From positions 24,413 through 88,412 of IMG/VR virus record IMGVR_UViG_3300032271_000867: a stretch of 64,000 nt of DNA, one strand, 5' to 3'. The position numbers and the translations under genes are program-made. Under the pieces are notes generated by a model that was not told the origin of the DNA, did no database searches, and saw nothing but the letters and a program-made list of their open reading frames with translations. This document shows, in pieces, positions 44,135 through 58,890 of this stretch (position 1 is the first letter of the stretch; each line of letters starts with the position of its first letter). Source of the DNA: a virus.

Positions 44135-45878
44135 TTAATCTTTATCTACAGTTCTTCTTTGCGGTAGTTTAGTTCCATACGCTTCTGTTACAAGGGCATT
44201 CCTAATTGAAGCCTCACCCTGCAAAATCTCTTCTGCTGATTGCGTATTTTCAGGAGACTTTTCATTTTCTGGAGTTTGAGGTCCTAGAACACCATCTCCA
44301 AGAACATCGCCATCACCCATCATCATTGGGTCCATTGGAGTAGCAACTCCACCTTCAGGACCAGGCATCATGCCAGTTAGATCCATAATTTCTTTTTGAA
44401 TCTGAGTTCTGATGAGAGTTAGAGCACCATCTGCTTCAGCATCTGCAATAAGCTCTGCACGAATTTCTTGTAGTTTCTCTTCTGGGAATTCCTCACCAAG
44501 AGCACGAAGAGCGCCTTCTTTAGATTCAAGACCCAAAGACATTTTAGTCTGTAACTCATTAAGCAAGATAAGTTTATCTAGAGGAAGTGGGTTAGGAAAT
44601 TGTGCATAAGTTACATAGGTAAGAGGATCATTAGGATCAAGTTGAGCTACTTGACCTTCTTTAATAGGCCCATCTGTTTCTGGATTGTAACTAAAAGTTT
44701 CTGGTTCTTTTACAGCTAGGTTCAAAAGAATAAGCTGGTTAATTTCCTCTAGACCTCTGCCATACTGAGAAACTTTTTGTGACCAGCGATTCATAAGAGG
44801 CTGATATTGAATAGAAAGAGCAACACCAGAAGTGTTAGAAATTGGTTGAATTTGGCCAAGAGCAGCTTCTGGAATATTCATAAGTTCATGCATTGATGTT
44901 TTCAACATTTGCATATATTCCATAGCACCTGAAAGTCCGGCAGATCCACCTTCTAAGTTAAATACTTGTGCATCTTTAGGAAGGCCTCCCCAAACTTTCT
45001 TAGCGCCTTTTTCCATACCTTCAAGTTTTGCTCCAACAACAACAGTTACAGGAGCTGCGTGATAATTAACAATATCTGCAATGTCAGTTGCAATTTCGTT
45101 GTAAGAACGATTTATGGTAATAATGTCGTGAGCGTCTGAAAGACCCCAAGGCGAACCAGATACAGGAATGTTAGGGATGTGGACAACTGGAATTTGTCCC
45201 AAAGGGTTTGGTCTGCTGTCGATAAGTTCGTCATTTACATACTCCTCAATAATGTCGTCAGTAAGAATCTCAGTATAGGTATAGACCTGACGGGTACCTT
45301 CTAAGCTAGTACCCCAAAAACGATATTTTTGCTTAAAACGAAGAAGACGGCTACGATCGTGAGGGTGAAACTCTGGAAAACAAAACGCAGGGTTTAAAGG
45401 AAGAACACGAACACGGCCTGGGTGAAAACGTCCGATGCTATCTTCCCAAGCTTCTTCATAAGCAATTTTAACAAAACAATCCCCTGTAATACCGCCAGTT
45501 TGTGCCATTTCAAGTAGAACACGCTGTTTGTTATTGTCAATTTCCCAAACTCGTTCTAGACGATCTGGAACAATAGCTTCAGTAGCTTTAGGAGAACGGA
45601 AGTGGATACCTTTACCAAAAGTAAACCTAGCAAGATAGTCTAGGAATGCACGGTAGTAGTTAAGCGAAATTTGCATTTCGCCTTGTTCTCTACGGTAGCC
45701 CCAATGGTGTCCCAAGTACATGGCCCAGTTGAGTGAGTAACGATTTAGGCGAGGACCATGGACCTCACTATTCAAATTCCTCGTCTGCTAATTCAACTAA
45801 TCCAAGTGGAGAAATGGAAATAGTTAAGTCAGAAGACGCCGCACGATAAGATGGCGGTGAAAAATCAAGGAATGACAT
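44135..45878 (-). CDS. Portal protein (SPP1 gp6-like), reading frame interrupted by a 7-nt insert at 45764-45773
   Basis: Strong SD AAGGAGGTGA, ATG 45878, 36 codons MSFLDF..ELADEEFE, then TAG; resumes in the +1 frame VHGPRLNRYS..; portal motifs NYYRAFLD, GITGDCFV, IPVVHIPN..WGLSD, NTSGVAL. Confidence 0.9.
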
Positions 45879-46204
45879 CAGGCATCACCTCCTTAGAATT
45901 CTGGAGGTTTCGTACCTCATTGGCAATACGCTTTTTGATTTCATCTGTAAAAGGAAAAATTGCATTTTTACGGATGTTACAAGGAGAACAAGCTGGGCGT
46001 AAATTATCCACAGTATGTGCTCCTCCTTTTGAAAGTGGTTGAACATGGTCCCAATGAATATCTGTCAAAGGTTGTTTACAAATCCAACATAGATTGTTAA
46101 ATTCTTCTAAAATACTTTCATATTCTTTATCAGAAATCTTAGTAAACTTAGTATTAGCTTTTTGTGCTCTACGTTCACGTTCTTTTCTAGCTACTACTTA
46201 ATCA
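45865..46204 (-). pseudogene. HNH endonuclease that has lost an in-frame start
   Basis: Open frame 45865-46197 with CWIC..HWDHVQPLSKGGAHTVDNLRPACSPCNIRK; the only coupled start reads ATG ATT AAG TAG in another frame. Confidence 0.65.
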
Positions 46205-46488
46205 TCTTTTTTGTCGTGCTTAGAATCTTTTTTGTGAAGTTTCTTTTTTAACTCAGCTTTTTTAGCTTTTAATTCTTGAATTCGTTCTTCACGTTTTGAG
46301 CTAAATTGACGACTCATAATTTTCTTGCGTCTAGTTTCTTCTGAAGTATCTTCAAATTTTCCACCATTTTTAATATATTGCTGGTGGACCCAGTGAGATG
46401 CCCCCGGATTAGGATAGTTAGTATACTTAGCTTTAGCTTGGGTAATAATCATTGCCCAAAGCCTTGTGTTTGTAGGTACCTGTGCCAT
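46198..46488 (-). CDS. Basic hypothetical phage protein
   Basis: N..LW....QAKAKY..YP...AS.W...Y...GG.F motif; AAGGA SD. Confidence 0.7.
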   Translation of the reverse strand: MAQVPTNTRLWAMIITQAKAKYTNYPNPGASHWVHQQYIKNGGKFEDTSEETRRKKIMSRQFSSKREERIQELKAKKAELKKKLHKKDSKHDKKDD

Positions 46489-57648: not shown

Positions 57649-57677
57649 ATTTATTGTTTAGTTTAGCAATAATGCAG

Positions 57678-57758
57678 TACTCGAAACGGGACTTGAACCC
57701 GTATGCCCAGGGCGGTTGATTTTAAGTCAACTGTGTATACCGATTCCACCATTCGAGC
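57678..57758 (-). tRNA. tRNA-Leu (UAA), CCA not encoded
   Basis: GCTCGAA/TTCGAGT acceptor, D arm TGGTGGAATCGGTATACAC, GTTGA-CTTAAAA-TCAAC, variable arm, ACGGG-TTCAAGT-CCCGT, A73. Confidence 0.95.
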
Positions 57759-58315: not shown

Positions 58316-58377
58316 GTTTATTTCTCCTTAATGTTGCAGGAATACACCTGCTACATATAAGTATACAGTAAAAATTG

Positions 58378-58450
58378 CTGACCTACCTGGATTCGAACCA
58401 GGAACCTTAGAGTTAACAGCTCTCTGCGATGCCAATTTCGCCATAGGTCA
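58378..58450 (-). tRNA. tRNA-Asn (GUU), CCA not encoded
   Basis: TGACCTA/TAGGTCA acceptor, G73, AGAG-CTGTTAA-CTCT, CCTGG-TTCGAAT-CCAGG. Confidence 0.93.
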
Positions 58451-58458
58451 ATATTAAG

Positions 58459-58890
58459 TTATGAGATATATTCTAGTAGGTTTTTTATGTTTTGTGTACT
58501 ATCTTTTAAAATACCTAACGCAACATTGCATGGAAAACATAGCACACCACGAACACAACTTCCACAAGAAAAACGTTTATTACAGCAAGAATGATCATGA
58601 TCAATGTTAACTGCTTCATTTACTTTACAGGCATGGCAGTTACCCTCGTATAAAGCTAATAACTCATTGTACTTTTCTTCAGTTAGTTTATGTCGTTTCC
58701 AGTTAGTTCTGTAAGTAGAACTCATTTGTACTTTTTCAGCGTATTTTTCAGGATTATCTTTATAATACTGAGAAACATAAGTTGAATGACATTTTTTACA
58801 AATGTTTCTTCGTCCATCTACATATTTTGCACCTTTGGCAAACAATTCTAGATCTTTATCTTCGTTGCATTTATTACACGTTTTTATCAT
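58459..58890 (-). CDS. Endonuclease VII-like (His-Me finger) homing-type endonuclease
   Basis: KTCNKC..CKKC N-terminal; CHAC..IDHDH..VRGVLCFPCNVALG. Confidence 0.88.
   Translation of the reverse strand: MIKTCNKCNEDKDLELFAKGAKYVDGRRNICKKCHSTYVSQYYKDNPEKYAEKVQMSSTYRTNWKRHKLTEEKYNELLALYEGNCHACKVNEAVNIDHDHSCCNKRFSCGSCVRGVLCFPCNVALGILKDSTQNIKNLLEYIS

What the first reader, a model, noticed from the sequence alone, without database searches (positions are those of the whole stretch)
45746..45878. Essential portal gene split by GAA-UAG-U-GAG: candidate programmed ribosome hop
Seen: a strong SD (AAGGAGGUGA) and ATG 45878 give 36 codons ending ELADEEFE, then UAG. The portal continues in the +1 frame 7 nt later: UUU GAA UAG U GAG GUC CAU. 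A P-site tRNA-Glu leaving GAA and re-pairing on GAG yields a seamless EEFE-VHGPRLNRY. The stop lies at the base of a possible stem-loop UAGUGAGG-UCCAUGGU-CCUCG(C)CUA (45746-45770), and an SD-like GAGGA sits just upstream. The in-frame TTG at 45775 is only ~2 nt from that GAGGA, a poor restart. Known: T4 gene 60 bypassing uses matched take-off and landing codons, a UAG and a stem-loop. Inference: a mini bypass could limit portal (12 copies) relative to capsid protein. Alternatives are a collapsed intron remnant, a two-piece portal, a defective genome or an assembly error.
Basis: partly seen in the sequence, partly recalled or inferred. Interest (0 to 1): 0.8.

Follow-up and report, generated by a model that had tools for sequence, protein, structure and literature searches.

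The report
Stop-hop gap in phage portal gene
The essential portal gene of this uncultured freshwater phage carries seven real extra bases that begin with a stop codon; they are the mark left by a selfish nuclease gene (here decayed) next door, and ribosomes most likely hop over them, a miniature counterpart of the phage T4 gene 60 bypass.

Summary
On the minus strand ATG 45878 opens 36 codons ending GAA. TAG and TGA follow, and the portal frame resumes 7 nt later at GTC 45763. Full-length relatives read straight through, EEFE then VHGPR.

The 7 nt are not an error. A Logan contig of the probable source run and a 151-nt contig from another study both bridge them. A relative with 76% mean column identity carries the same 7 nt.

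Across 177 related loci I found 21 gap types of 4-9 nt, after codons 35/36 or 52/54:
- 20 of 21 start with a stop codon.
- 13 of 21 end in a codon cognate to the one before the gap.
- 6 are in frame, 12 are +1 and 3 are +2.

The gaps travel with an HNH endonuclease gene just upstream of the portal. Among 135 distinct alleles the counts were gap+HNH 28, gap without HNH 2, gapless+HNH 0 and gapless without HNH 105. HNH clade predicts gap site. One contig shows a roughly 180-nt conversion patch carrying the gap. In this window the HNH gene is a 5'-truncated remnant.

Best reading: an endonuclease-immunity insert decoded by a GAA-to-GAG hop. The stem-loop and the dosage role are not supported. Translation was not tested. 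The scan found this before on other DNA.

The parts
45885..45894 (-). Shine-Dalgarno AAGGAGGTGA of the portal gene. It lies inside the 3' end of the HNH remnant ORF.
   Evidence: Read. The same ...GGAGGTGATGCC ATG context is seen in HNH-bearing relatives.
45771..45878 (-). Portal coding part 1: ATG plus 35 codons, ending at the take-off codon GAA (45773-45771).
   Evidence: It matches residues 1-36 of the full-length relatives I aligned, with one residue different in some.
45764..45770 (-). 7-nt coding gap TAGTGAG. It holds stop TAG (45770-45768), an overlapping second zero-frame stop TGA (45767-45765), and landing codon GAG (45766-45764).
   Evidence: Absent from at least 120 gapless relatives. 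Present in L001. Bridged by contigs from two studies. Listed in the type table.
44135..45763 (-). Portal coding part 2: resumes at GTC (Val37) and runs 542 codons plus the stop. SPP1 Gp6-like portal.
   Evidence: PF05133 at 3e-22. 79-85% identical to relatives of 571-580 aa. This is the only portal locus in the 88,412-bp record.
45865..46197 (-). 5'-truncated HNH homing-endonuclease remnant: 110 codons plus the stop. It has no ATG or GTG start and begins directly after the TAA of the upstream gene, in the same frame. Its 3' end overlaps the portal start.
   Evidence: PF01844 at 1e-10 and PF14279. Full-length homologues of about 207-218 aa with an ATG occur in relatives.
46198..46488 (-). Upstream 96-aa gene of unknown function, the left neighbour of the cassette. 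Its TAA stop (46200-46198) abuts the HNH remnant.
   Evidence: Homologues were hit in 115 of the 138 loci searched. No PHROG match.
45773..45775 (-). TTG in the portal frame: the candidate restart codon, judged not used.
   Evidence: Replaced by TCG in most gap-bearing alleles, which have TTC at Phe35.

Best explanation
The 7 nt TAGTGAG (45770-45764) are a coding gap that entered the portal gene together with a free-standing HNH homing-endonuclease gene inserted just upstream of the portal start.

Inferred from co-occurrence and from the T4 MobA precedent: the endonuclease cuts gapless portal alleles near codons 35-37 during mixed infection. Repair copies the donor's sequence. The gap breaks the recognition site, so the carrier is immune.

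Shown: in this window the endonuclease gene has since decayed to a start-less C-terminal half, and the gap remains.

Inferred, not observed: to make the portal, a ribosome with peptidyl-tRNA-Glu on GAA (codon 36) meets UAG in its A site. The tRNA unpairs, the mRNA slides 7 nt, and the tRNA re-pairs on GAG. Decoding then resumes at GUC. The product would be the same ...EEFE-VHGPR... protein as in gapless relatives.

Efficiency is unknown. A portal is needed at only 12 copies per capsid (established knowledge), so a modest yield may be enough.
For: 1. The gap is real and old.
- The same 7 nt sit in L001, a 95,920-bp contig with 76% mean column identity to the window over the aligned stretch.
- Contigs from two studies bridge the gap.

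2. Recurrent design. 57 of 177 related loci carry gaps, in 21 types of 4-9 nt, after codons 35/36 or 52/54.
- 20 of 21 begin with TAG, TGA or TAA directly after the last sense codon.
- 13 of 21 end in a codon cognate to the take-off codon. In all 13 it is the first cognate triplet in any register.
- 7 more match at 2 of 3 positions.

3. Gap lengths mod 3 are 12 (+1), 6 (in frame, each with a stop) and 3 (+2). TAAGTAG also closes the +1 frame. Only bypassing gives one uniform product.

4. Both flanks stay under purifying selection among gap alleles.
- Residues 5-52 are invariant in 13 of the 14 gap alleles compared; L108 has one change.
- L001 against L007: codons 1-52 give dN 0 and dS 0.53; codons 53-360 give dN 0.04 and dS 1.37.

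5. Linkage to HNH.
- tblastn with the window's HNH hit 18 loci, all gap-bearing.
- On 135 distinct alleles with at least 400 nt upstream: gap+HNH 28, gap without HNH 2, gapless+HNH 0, gapless without HNH 105.
- The two exceptions, L001 and L003, keep the last codons of the HNH ORF.

6. HNH clade predicts gap site. All 15 rows of one clade (support 100) have a gap at codon 52 or 54. The other 13 rows have a gap at 35/36, except L161 at 52.

7. Mobility.
- Gap alleles need at least 8-9 changes on the portal tree.
- L003 and gapless L107 match at 58-60 of 60 positions in every filled 60-nt window over the ~3.3 kb compared, except in the windows from about -136 to +43 around the gap.
- In those windows L003 matches HNH-bearing L007 at 173 of 180 positions.

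8. Precedent. The MobA/gene 60 cassette shows the same logic: the bypass insert protects against MobA, and the endonuclease is pseudogenised or lost while the bypass stays (bioRxiv 10.1101/2022.08.31.505936, passages read). For the short gaps in the phiHau3 terminase, a junction peptide was found by mass spectrometry in E. coli (PMC10732093, passages read).
Against: - No protein, RNA or reporter evidence exists. No RNA run is listed for this DNA.
- 8 of 21 gap types lack a cognate landing codon. TAGTGTT matches at 1 of 3 positions, and TAGTGTA mismatches the middle base. Matched hopping therefore cannot be the whole rule. Some alleles may use +1 shifting or be dead.
- One gap allele (L011/L017/L147, TAATAA) also has a 1-nt frameshift near codon 84. 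At least some carriers may be defective or mis-assembled.
- No conserved RNA structure or other stimulator was found. Unaided hops over stops are inefficient in E. coli (recalled).
- Conversion patches can move the gap between genomes. Divergence outside the patch therefore need not postdate the gap, which weakens the dN/dS argument for codons 53-360.
- Allele counts are not phylogenetically independent.
- The host is unknown.
- Endonuclease cleavage and immunity are inferred from co-occurrence only.
Confidence: 0.72

Rival explanations
1. A +1 ribosomal frameshift at the 'shifty stop' GAA-UAG. The ribosome slips or reads out of frame by one base. It decodes AGU and GAG, then GUC, giving a portal with two extra residues (..EEFE-SE-VHGPR..).
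For: - The +1 frame across the window's gap is open and reads S-E.
- 12 of 21 gap types have length 1 mod 3.
- TAGTGTT and TAGTGTA have no cognate landing codon but do have an open +1 frame.
- A GAGG run lies 5-6 nt upstream of the take-off codon.
Against: - GAA cannot re-pair at +1 (AAU).
- 9 of 21 types are in frame or +2, and TAAGTAG has a stop in the +1 frame.
- Residues 5-52 are invariant in nearly all relatives compared, so a 2-residue insertion is likely harmful.
- The GAGG run is ordinary D-E-E coding and is also present in gapless alleles.
Confidence: 0.12
2. A non-functional portal allele. The gap simply kills the gene, and such genomes persist for a while by complementation in mixed infections, carried along by the selfish endonuclease's drive.
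For: - The cassette is selfish and could spread at a cost.
- One carrier (L011/L017/L147) has a further frameshift.
- In run X1 gapless relatives co-occur at similar or higher contig depth (10.6 and 37.7 against 11.1).
Against: - Gap-bearing alleles are diverged. The window and L001 share the same 7 nt at 76% mean column identity.
- Both flanks keep dN/dS near 0, and the other 542 codons are intact.
- 20 of 21 types start with a stop and 13 of 21 have a matched landing codon. Decay would not produce that pattern.
- L001 and L003 have lost the driving endonuclease yet keep the gap.
- There is no second portal copy in the record.
Confidence: 0.08
3. A two-piece portal. A 36-residue N-terminal peptide terminates at UAG, and the rest is started separately at TTG 45775 or downstream. 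The pieces then assemble non-covalently, as T4 gp39 and gp60 do.
For: - TTG 45775 is in the portal frame with GAGGA nearby.
- Homing-endonuclease insertions are known to split genes into working pieces (passages read).
Against: - The TTG is TCG in most gap alleles, including L001, which has the same gap.
- Gaps at codon 52 have no start codon nearby.
- In double-gap alleles (L004, L008, L168) the 16-codon middle segment has no usable start yet keeps its protein sequence. Divergence there is small, so this point is weak.
- The GAGGA-to-TTG spacing is about 2 nt.
Confidence: 0.04
4. A sequencing or assembly error in this contig.
For: None found.
Against: - An independent Logan assembly of run X1 matches with 0 differences, and a contig from another study bridges the gap.
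- The same insert is in L001.
- 57 of 177 loci, from many metagenome datasets, carry stop-led gaps at the same codons.
Confidence: 0.01

Closest known systems
Phage T4 gene 60 translational bypass within the MobA (HNH) homing-endonuclease element (Manning & Atkins, bioRxiv 10.1101/2022.08.31.505936, passages read; Bonocora et al. 2011 only as cited there)
   Same: - An HNH homing-endonuclease gene sits next to a non-coding insert in an essential phage gene.
- The insert occurs in every genome that has the endonuclease and in some that have lost it. Here that is 28 of 28 and 2.
- The endonuclease is often pseudogenised; the window has a remnant.
- Take-off and landing codons are matched, with a stop directly after take-off.
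- There are multiple independent insertions across the host-gene tree.
   Different: - The target is the portal gene, not topoisomerase.
- The gap is 4-9 nt, not 50.
- The endonuclease gene lies upstream of an unsplit gene, rather than splitting it with added tails.
- At least three or four alternative gap sites exist, each tied to an HNH clade.
- No conserved stem-loop was found, and a nascent-peptide signal was not tested.
- Homology of this HNH to MobA was not tested.
- Bypassing and cleavage immunity are experimentally shown for T4 and only inferred here.
UUA-led short coding gaps in the large terminase of Streptomyces phage phiHau3 and two prophages (Antonov et al. 2023, RNA Biol, PMC10732093, passages read)
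   Same: - Very short inserts (10 nt, and 7 nt in prophages) lie in an essential packaging or head gene.
- The flanks match uninterrupted homologues, and conservation at the junction argues against simple frameshifting.
- A slow-to-decode codon opens the gap.
- One relative here, L161, has a TTA-led 4-nt gap.
   Different: - Here the A-site codon is a true stop in 20 of 21 types, not a rare sense codon.
- No link to host tRNA regulation is implied.
- The gaps are tied to a homing endonuclease, which the passages I read do not report for phiHau3.
- phiHau3 has junction-peptide mass-spectrometry evidence from E. coli; this case has none.
Spontaneous short hops over stop codons in E. coli (Weiss et al. 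1987 and later work; seen only as references, content recalled)
   Same: Peptidyl-tRNA leaves its codon when a stop occupies the A site and re-pairs on a nearby similar codon a few bases downstream.
   Different: Those are low-level laboratory events in reporter constructs. Here the arrangement is fixed in a natural essential gene and recurs in many lineages.
Byps: mobile 27-55 nt bypassed inserts in Magnusiomyces capitatus mitochondria (Lang et al. 2014; seen only as described)
   Same: Many short non-coding inserts in essential genes, several per gene, presumed to be bypassed by ribosomes and spread as mobile DNA.
   Different: Those inserts are mitochondrial, longer and derived from GC clusters, and the text read describes no endonuclease partner.

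Membership tests
SPP1 Gp6-like portal protein (PF05133) | Match to the Pfam profile above the gathering score | tested here: met
   79.6 bits against a cut-off of 25.5, profile positions 11-410 of 416.
Programmed translational bypassing (hop) | Two ORF parts separated by non-coding bases that together equal an uninterrupted homologue | tested here: met
   The relatives fetched read EEFE then VHGPR without a break, and at least 120 loci are gapless. The window has 7 extra nt.
Programmed translational bypassing (hop) | Take-off and landing codons readable by the same peptidyl-tRNA, with the landing codon directly 5' of the resume codon | tested here: met
   In the window GAA goes to GAG, followed by GTC. 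Across the family 13 of 21 types are cognate, and the landing codon is then always the first cognate triplet. 8 of 21 are not cognate.
Programmed translational bypassing (hop) | A stop or slow-to-decode codon in the A site at take-off | tested here: met
   UAG in the window. 20 of 21 types start with a stop and 1 with TTA.
Programmed translational bypassing (hop) | Stimulatory mRNA structure at the take-off site, as in gene 60 | tested here: not met
   z = -0.37 for the window. No shared fold among 11 gap alleles.
Programmed translational bypassing (hop) | Junction peptide or full-length product demonstrated | not testable with these tools
   No proteome or RNA data. The only runs holding this DNA are on record as DNA contigs.
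Homing-endonuclease plus bypass cassette (T4 MobA/gene 60 kind) | HNH endonuclease gene adjacent to the gap | tested here: met
   Remnant at 46197-45865 with PF01844 at 1e-10. Full-length ORFs are present in relatives.
Homing-endonuclease plus bypass cassette (T4 MobA/gene 60 kind) | Gap present wherever the endonuclease is present, and absent from alleles without any trace of it | tested here: met
   Counts of 28, 2, 0 and 105 on 135 distinct alleles. The 2 exceptions keep HNH 3' remnants.
Homing-endonuclease plus bypass cassette (T4 MobA/gene 60 kind) | Horizontal spread with co-conversion of flanking DNA | tested here: met
   The L003, L107 and L007 comparison shows a conversion patch of roughly 180 nt. 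At least 8-9 changes are needed on the portal tree.
Homing-endonuclease plus bypass cassette (T4 MobA/gene 60 kind) | Endonuclease cuts the gapless allele and is blocked by the gap | not testable with these tools
   Inferred only from the match between HNH clade and gap site.
Homing-endonuclease plus bypass cassette (T4 MobA/gene 60 kind) | Homology to the MobA element itself: Topo2L target, 50-nt gap, GGA take-off and landing | tested here: not met
   The target is the portal gene, the gap is 7 nt, and the codons are GAA and GAG. MobA protein similarity was not compared. This works like the MobA element but is not a member of it.
phiHau3-type UUA-led gaps | Gap opens with the rare Leu codon UUA | tested here: not met
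   The window's gap opens with UAG. Only L161, 1 of 21 types, is TTA-led.
RF2-type +1 programmed frameshift | P-site codon that can re-pair in the +1 frame before a stop, with an SD-like element 3 nt upstream | tested here: not met
   GAA would have to re-pair on AAU, which is not possible. GAGG lies 5-6 nt upstream and is ordinary coding also present in gapless alleles.

The most novel reading that the evidence does not exclude
Free-standing homing endonucleases in a large group of freshwater (and some GC-richer) phages routinely protect their own carriers. They do so by planting 4-9 nt stop-led 'mini coding gaps' in the most conserved stretch of the essential portal gene.

On this reading the host's ordinary ribosomes hop over the gaps without any elaborate RNA or peptide signal, and well enough to supply portal. 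Short stop-hops would then be a general, evolvable way for selfish DNA to mark essential genes. T4 gene 60 would be the extreme end of a continuum rather than a singularity.
Probability: 0.55. Interest if true: 0.88.

Novelty: new variant of a known kind. Interest (0 to 1): 0.82.

Why it matters
Efficient natural translational bypassing has rested on very few systems: T4 gene 60 and its homologues, yeast mitochondrial byps, and the candidate phiHau3 gaps.

This case offers a second, unrelated pairing of a homing endonuclease with a coding gap. It comes with a natural allelic series of 21 gap designs at three or four positions in one gene. That is effectively a ready-made mutagenesis table for asking what a minimal hop needs: the kind of stop, the spacer length, and the quality of the landing match.

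It also bears on annotation. Gene callers truncate such portal genes; the window's own call starts at Met66 (P0001). Quality pipelines may therefore flag these genomes as broken.

Finally, it suggests how selfish nucleases can gain immunity inside invariant protein-coding DNA without changing the protein.

Tried and rejected
- Stem-loop signal. I folded 131 nt of the window (z = -0.37) and 90-99 nt of 11 gap alleles against 113 gapless alleles. Mean MFE per nt was -0.252 against -0.216, sd 0.037. There is no shared structure, so I rejected it as a conserved signal.
- A possible CGAGG/CCUCG pairing across the gap appears in some alleles but is broken in L001, L004, L008 and L018 (read by eye).
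- Phage-encoded helper tRNA. The window has only tRNA-Leu(TAA) and tRNA-Asn(GTT). There is no Glu, Tyr or suppressor tRNA. The first 24 kb of the record were not scanned.
- Other genes with gaps. tblastn of 10 neighbouring proteins against 138 loci found no comparable breaks. The exception is one in-frame TGA in a terminase (L120). The remaining hits were end-of-gene artefacts.
- 'Site 3' in L011/L017/L147 turned out to be a 1-nt-deletion-like frameshift without a stop, not a gap of this kind.
- Conversion patch for the window itself. No near-identical gapless relative was found (best 75-88% per 60 nt), so the patch boundaries could not be mapped here.
- Close annotated phages. blastn against the phage collection gave only 19-27% coverage, to Streptomyces phage portal genes.
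- RNA evidence. No RNA holder is listed for this stretch. All runs laid were contigs, so read-level polymorphism could not be judged.
- My first frame-aware alignment script was faulty, and the first greedy version placed gaps too early. I discarded both in favour.
- A single-protein HNH search found only near-identical loci, so I repeated it with an alignment.
- Literature. Three searches returned no paper describing an HNH-linked coding gap in a portal gene. I saw listings and abstracts only, apart from the two papers read in passages. Supplementary files were not opened and might hold related cases, for example the metagenomic tables of the Manning & Atkins preprint.
- Structure prediction, complex prediction, the protein atlas and the search of protein representatives were not used.
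Full report
**What is in the sequence**

The window is part of an 88,412-bp virus record. All its large ORFs lie on the minus strand. The local gene order is large terminase (48640-47039), two small ORFs, the region in question, the portal, a scaffold-like gene and the major capsid protein.

- On the minus strand a strong SD (AAGGAGGTGA, 45894-45885) precedes ATG 45878.
- 36 codons follow, ending GAA (45773-45771).
- Two zero-frame stops come next: TAG (45770-45768) and TGA (45767-45765).
- The PF05133 portal frame is the +1 frame. It resumes at GTC 45763 and runs to 44135.

The description in the finding is accurate. It missed only the second stop and the HNH gene upstream.

**The gene is one gene with 7 extra bases**

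A protein search returned 3387 relatives at E <= 0.001 among 8000 scored candidates. Of the 120 listed, all but three are 571-580 aa. The three exceptions are the window's own truncated call (P0001, 513 aa, starting at Met66) and two calls with shortened 5' ends.

The 8 full-length proteins I fetched read ...ELADEEFE followed directly by VHGPRLNRY.... The window therefore carries exactly 7 extra nt, TAGTGAG. The record holds no second portal copy.

**It is real**

- A 2045-nt Logan contig from run X1, which may be the source sample, matches 45500-46100 with 0 differences.
- A 151-nt contig from run X2, a different study, spans 45652-45802 with 2 other letters and no gap.
- Contigs of gapless relatives in the same runs stop aligning exactly at the gap. 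These are contigs, not reads, so within-strain polymorphism could not be assessed.
- The exact gap with its flanks also occurs in L001, a 95,920-bp IMG/VR contig.
- L001 has only 76% mean column identity to the window over the aligned stretch. The many differences within the portal leave the first 52 residues the same apart from residues 3-4.

**It is one of many**

| Scan | Result |
|---|---|
| Conserved flanks with a 1-30 nt gap, IMG/VR | 11 contigs |
| Same pattern, JGI metagenomes | 6 contigs, two of them the same contigs as IMG/VR hits |
| Search from the HNH side | 80 loci |

In all, 177 loci hold the portal N-terminal segment, and 57 of them carry at least one gap. There are 21 gap types of 4-9 nt:

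| Gap follows | Types |
|---|---|
| Phe35 | 3 |
| Glu36 | 11 |
| Tyr52 | 6 |
| Gly54 | 1 |

- 20 of 21 begin with a stop: TAG 10, TGA 6, TAA 4. One begins with TTA.
- 13 of 21 end in a codon cognate to the codon before the gap (GAA to GAA or GAG, TAT to TAC, TTC to TTT, GGT to GGT). In all 13 it is the first cognate triplet in any register.
- 7 more match at 2 of 3 positions. Six of those match at codon positions 2-3.
- One type, TAGTGTT, matches at only 1 position.
- Lengths mod 3 are 12 (+1), 6 (in frame, each containing a stop) and 3 (+2).
- TAAGTAG has a stop in the +1 frame.
- Several alleles (L004, L008/L012/L013, L168) carry two gaps, 16-17 codons apart.

tblastn of ten neighbouring proteins found no comparable gaps in the terminase, capsid, scaffold and other genes tested in 138 loci.

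**The gaps belong to a homing-endonuclease cassette**

Immediately upstream of the window's portal start lies a stop-to-stop ORF, 46197-45868, with a complete HNH motif (PF01844 at 1e-10).

- It has no ATG or GTG start.
- It begins right after the TAA of the upstream 96-aa gene, in the same frame.
- Relatives have full-length versions, mostly 207-218 aa with an ATG. Their stop overlaps the portal ATG.
- The window's copy lacks the N-terminal half. It is a decayed remnant.

tblastn with this ORF against the 138 pattern-derived loci hit 18, all gap-bearing. On distinct alleles with at least 400 nt of upstream DNA (n = 135) the counts were as follows:

| | HNH present | HNH absent |
|---|---|---|
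| Gap | 28 | 2 |
| Gapless | 0 | 105 |

These alleles are related, so the counts are not independent events. The two exceptions, L001 and L003, retain the last codons of the HNH ORF. They have therefore lost the gene and kept the gap.

An HNH tree of 28 distinct sequences splits into two parts:

- One clade (15 rows, support 100) in which every member has a gap at codon 52 or 54. Four of them also have a gap at 35/36.
- The remaining 13 rows, which have a gap at 35/36. The one exception is the long-branched L161, with TTAC at codon 52.

Endonuclease lineage thus predicts which site is interrupted. That is what one expects if each gap disrupts its own enzyme's recognition site.

**Mobility**

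- On a FastTree of 132 portal rows, with the gaps removed, gap alleles are scattered. At least 8-9 changes are needed; starred branches force 8.
- L003 (gap TAGTGAA, no HNH) and gapless L107 match at 58-60 of 60 positions in every filled 60-nt window over the ~3.3 kb compared, outside one stretch.
- That stretch is the three 60-nt windows from about -136 to +43 around the gap. There L003 matches HNH-bearing L007 at 173 of 180 positions, while L107 does not.
- This is the footprint of break repair with short co-conversion, centred on the gap.

**Is the interrupted gene still used?**

- Residues 5-52 are invariant in 13 of the 14 gap alleles compared; L108 has one change. Synonymous sites are heavily diverged.
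- L001 against L007: codons 1-52 give dN 0 and dS 0.53; codons 53-360 give dN 0.04 and dS 1.37.
- Both reading frames on either side of the gap are therefore maintained.

Caveat: because patches move, divergence outside the patch need not postdate the gap. The argument within the patch is the cleaner one.

A restart at TTG 45775 is unlikely. Most gap alleles, including L001, have TTC at Phe35 and hence TCG at that position. Gaps at codon 52 have no start codon nearby.

**Mechanism**

The one reading that accounts for stop-led gaps of all three length classes, with matched flanking codons and an unchanged protein, is translational bypassing:

1. Peptidyl-tRNA-Glu sits on GAA with UAG in the A site.
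2. The tRNA unpairs and the mRNA slides 7 nt.
3. The tRNA re-pairs on GAG.
4. Decoding resumes at GUC.

This step is inferred. No product was observed.

Evidence that bypassing is not the whole story: 8 of 21 types lack a cognate landing codon, two types (TAGTGTA, TAGTGTT) fit a +1 shift better, and one carrier has an extra frameshift.

The GAGGA run is ordinary D-E-E coding shared with gapless alleles. No phage tRNA-Glu, tRNA-Tyr or suppressor tRNA is in the window.

**Comparison with known systems**

The logic mirrors the T4 MobA/gene 60 element. There an HNH homing endonuclease and a bypassed insert form one mobile cassette, the insert protects against the nuclease, and the nuclease is often pseudogenised or lost while the bypass persists (bioRxiv 10.1101/2022.08.31.505936, passages read).

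This case is not a member of that element:

- The target gene is different.
- The gap is 7 nt, not 50.
- The codons are different.
- No conserved structure was found.
- The host gene is not split.

The short length resembles the UUA-led 7-10 nt gaps in the phiHau3 terminase, for which a junction peptide was found in E. coli (PMC10732093, passages read). Here, though, the gaps start with true stops and are tied to an endonuclease.

Three literature searches returned no description of such a cassette in portal genes. Supplements were not seen.

Earlier agents of this scan reported the same phenomenon on other genomes. I reached the reading before opening those notes and re-derived the evidence here.

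**Verdict**

| Claim | My confidence |
|---|---|
| The 7-nt insert is real | about 0.99 |
| It is part of an HNH homing cassette | about 0.95 |
| It is decoded into full-length portal by recoding | about 0.85 |
| It is decoded by a GAA-to-GAG hop in this window | about 0.7 |

I class it as a new variant of a known kind, of high interest, and in need of a reporter or mass-spectrometry test.

Noticed in passing
window 46197-45865 (minus strand), with the upstream stop at 46200-46198: The HNH remnant ORF starts directly after the TAA of the 96-aa upstream gene, in the same frame, with no ATG or GTG before TTG 46068. A deletion seems to have fused the end of the upstream gene to the middle of the HNH gene. 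The remnant could be expressed only by read-through.
   Followed up: partly
L120 (IMG/VR relative), terminase gene: An in-frame TGA replaces the Ala codon in ..QQMTD*ETKF.. of an otherwise intact large terminase. It was the only such case among 114 loci with a terminase hit. It may be an error, a read-through site or another recoding site.
   Followed up: no
L011 = L017 = L147, portal codon ~84: Besides the TAATAA gap, this allele has a 1-nt-deletion-like frameshift (5 nt where relatives have the 6 nt of Thr-Phe) with no stop nearby. It is a possible pseudogene or assembly error.
   Followed up: partly
L161, portal codon 52: A GC-richer relative has a 4-nt gap TAC-TTAC that opens with TTA rather than a stop, with matched Tyr codons. 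This recalls the UUA-led gaps of phiHau3.
   Followed up: partly
window 57677-57758 and 58377-58450 (minus strand): Phage-encoded tRNA-Leu(TAA) and tRNA-Asn(GTT). A weak second HNH-like match (E 1.6e-4) lies beside them at about window 58480-58707.
   Followed up: no
Phe35 codon, window 45776-45774 and relatives: Gap-36 alleles mostly have TTC, which makes a GAATTC site, whereas 108 of 120 gapless alleles have TTT. This may be shared ancestry of the converted patch or a functional preference.
   Followed up: no
L181-L183: These three loci have a more distant HNH homologue (41% identity) in the locus, but a gapless portal N-terminus and no HNH within 900 nt upstream of the portal. The homologue presumably targets something else.
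   Followed up: no
window 44135-45676, protein P0001: The public gene call for this portal starts at Met66 (513 aa). It thereby drops 65 conserved residues because of the gap.
   Followed up: yes
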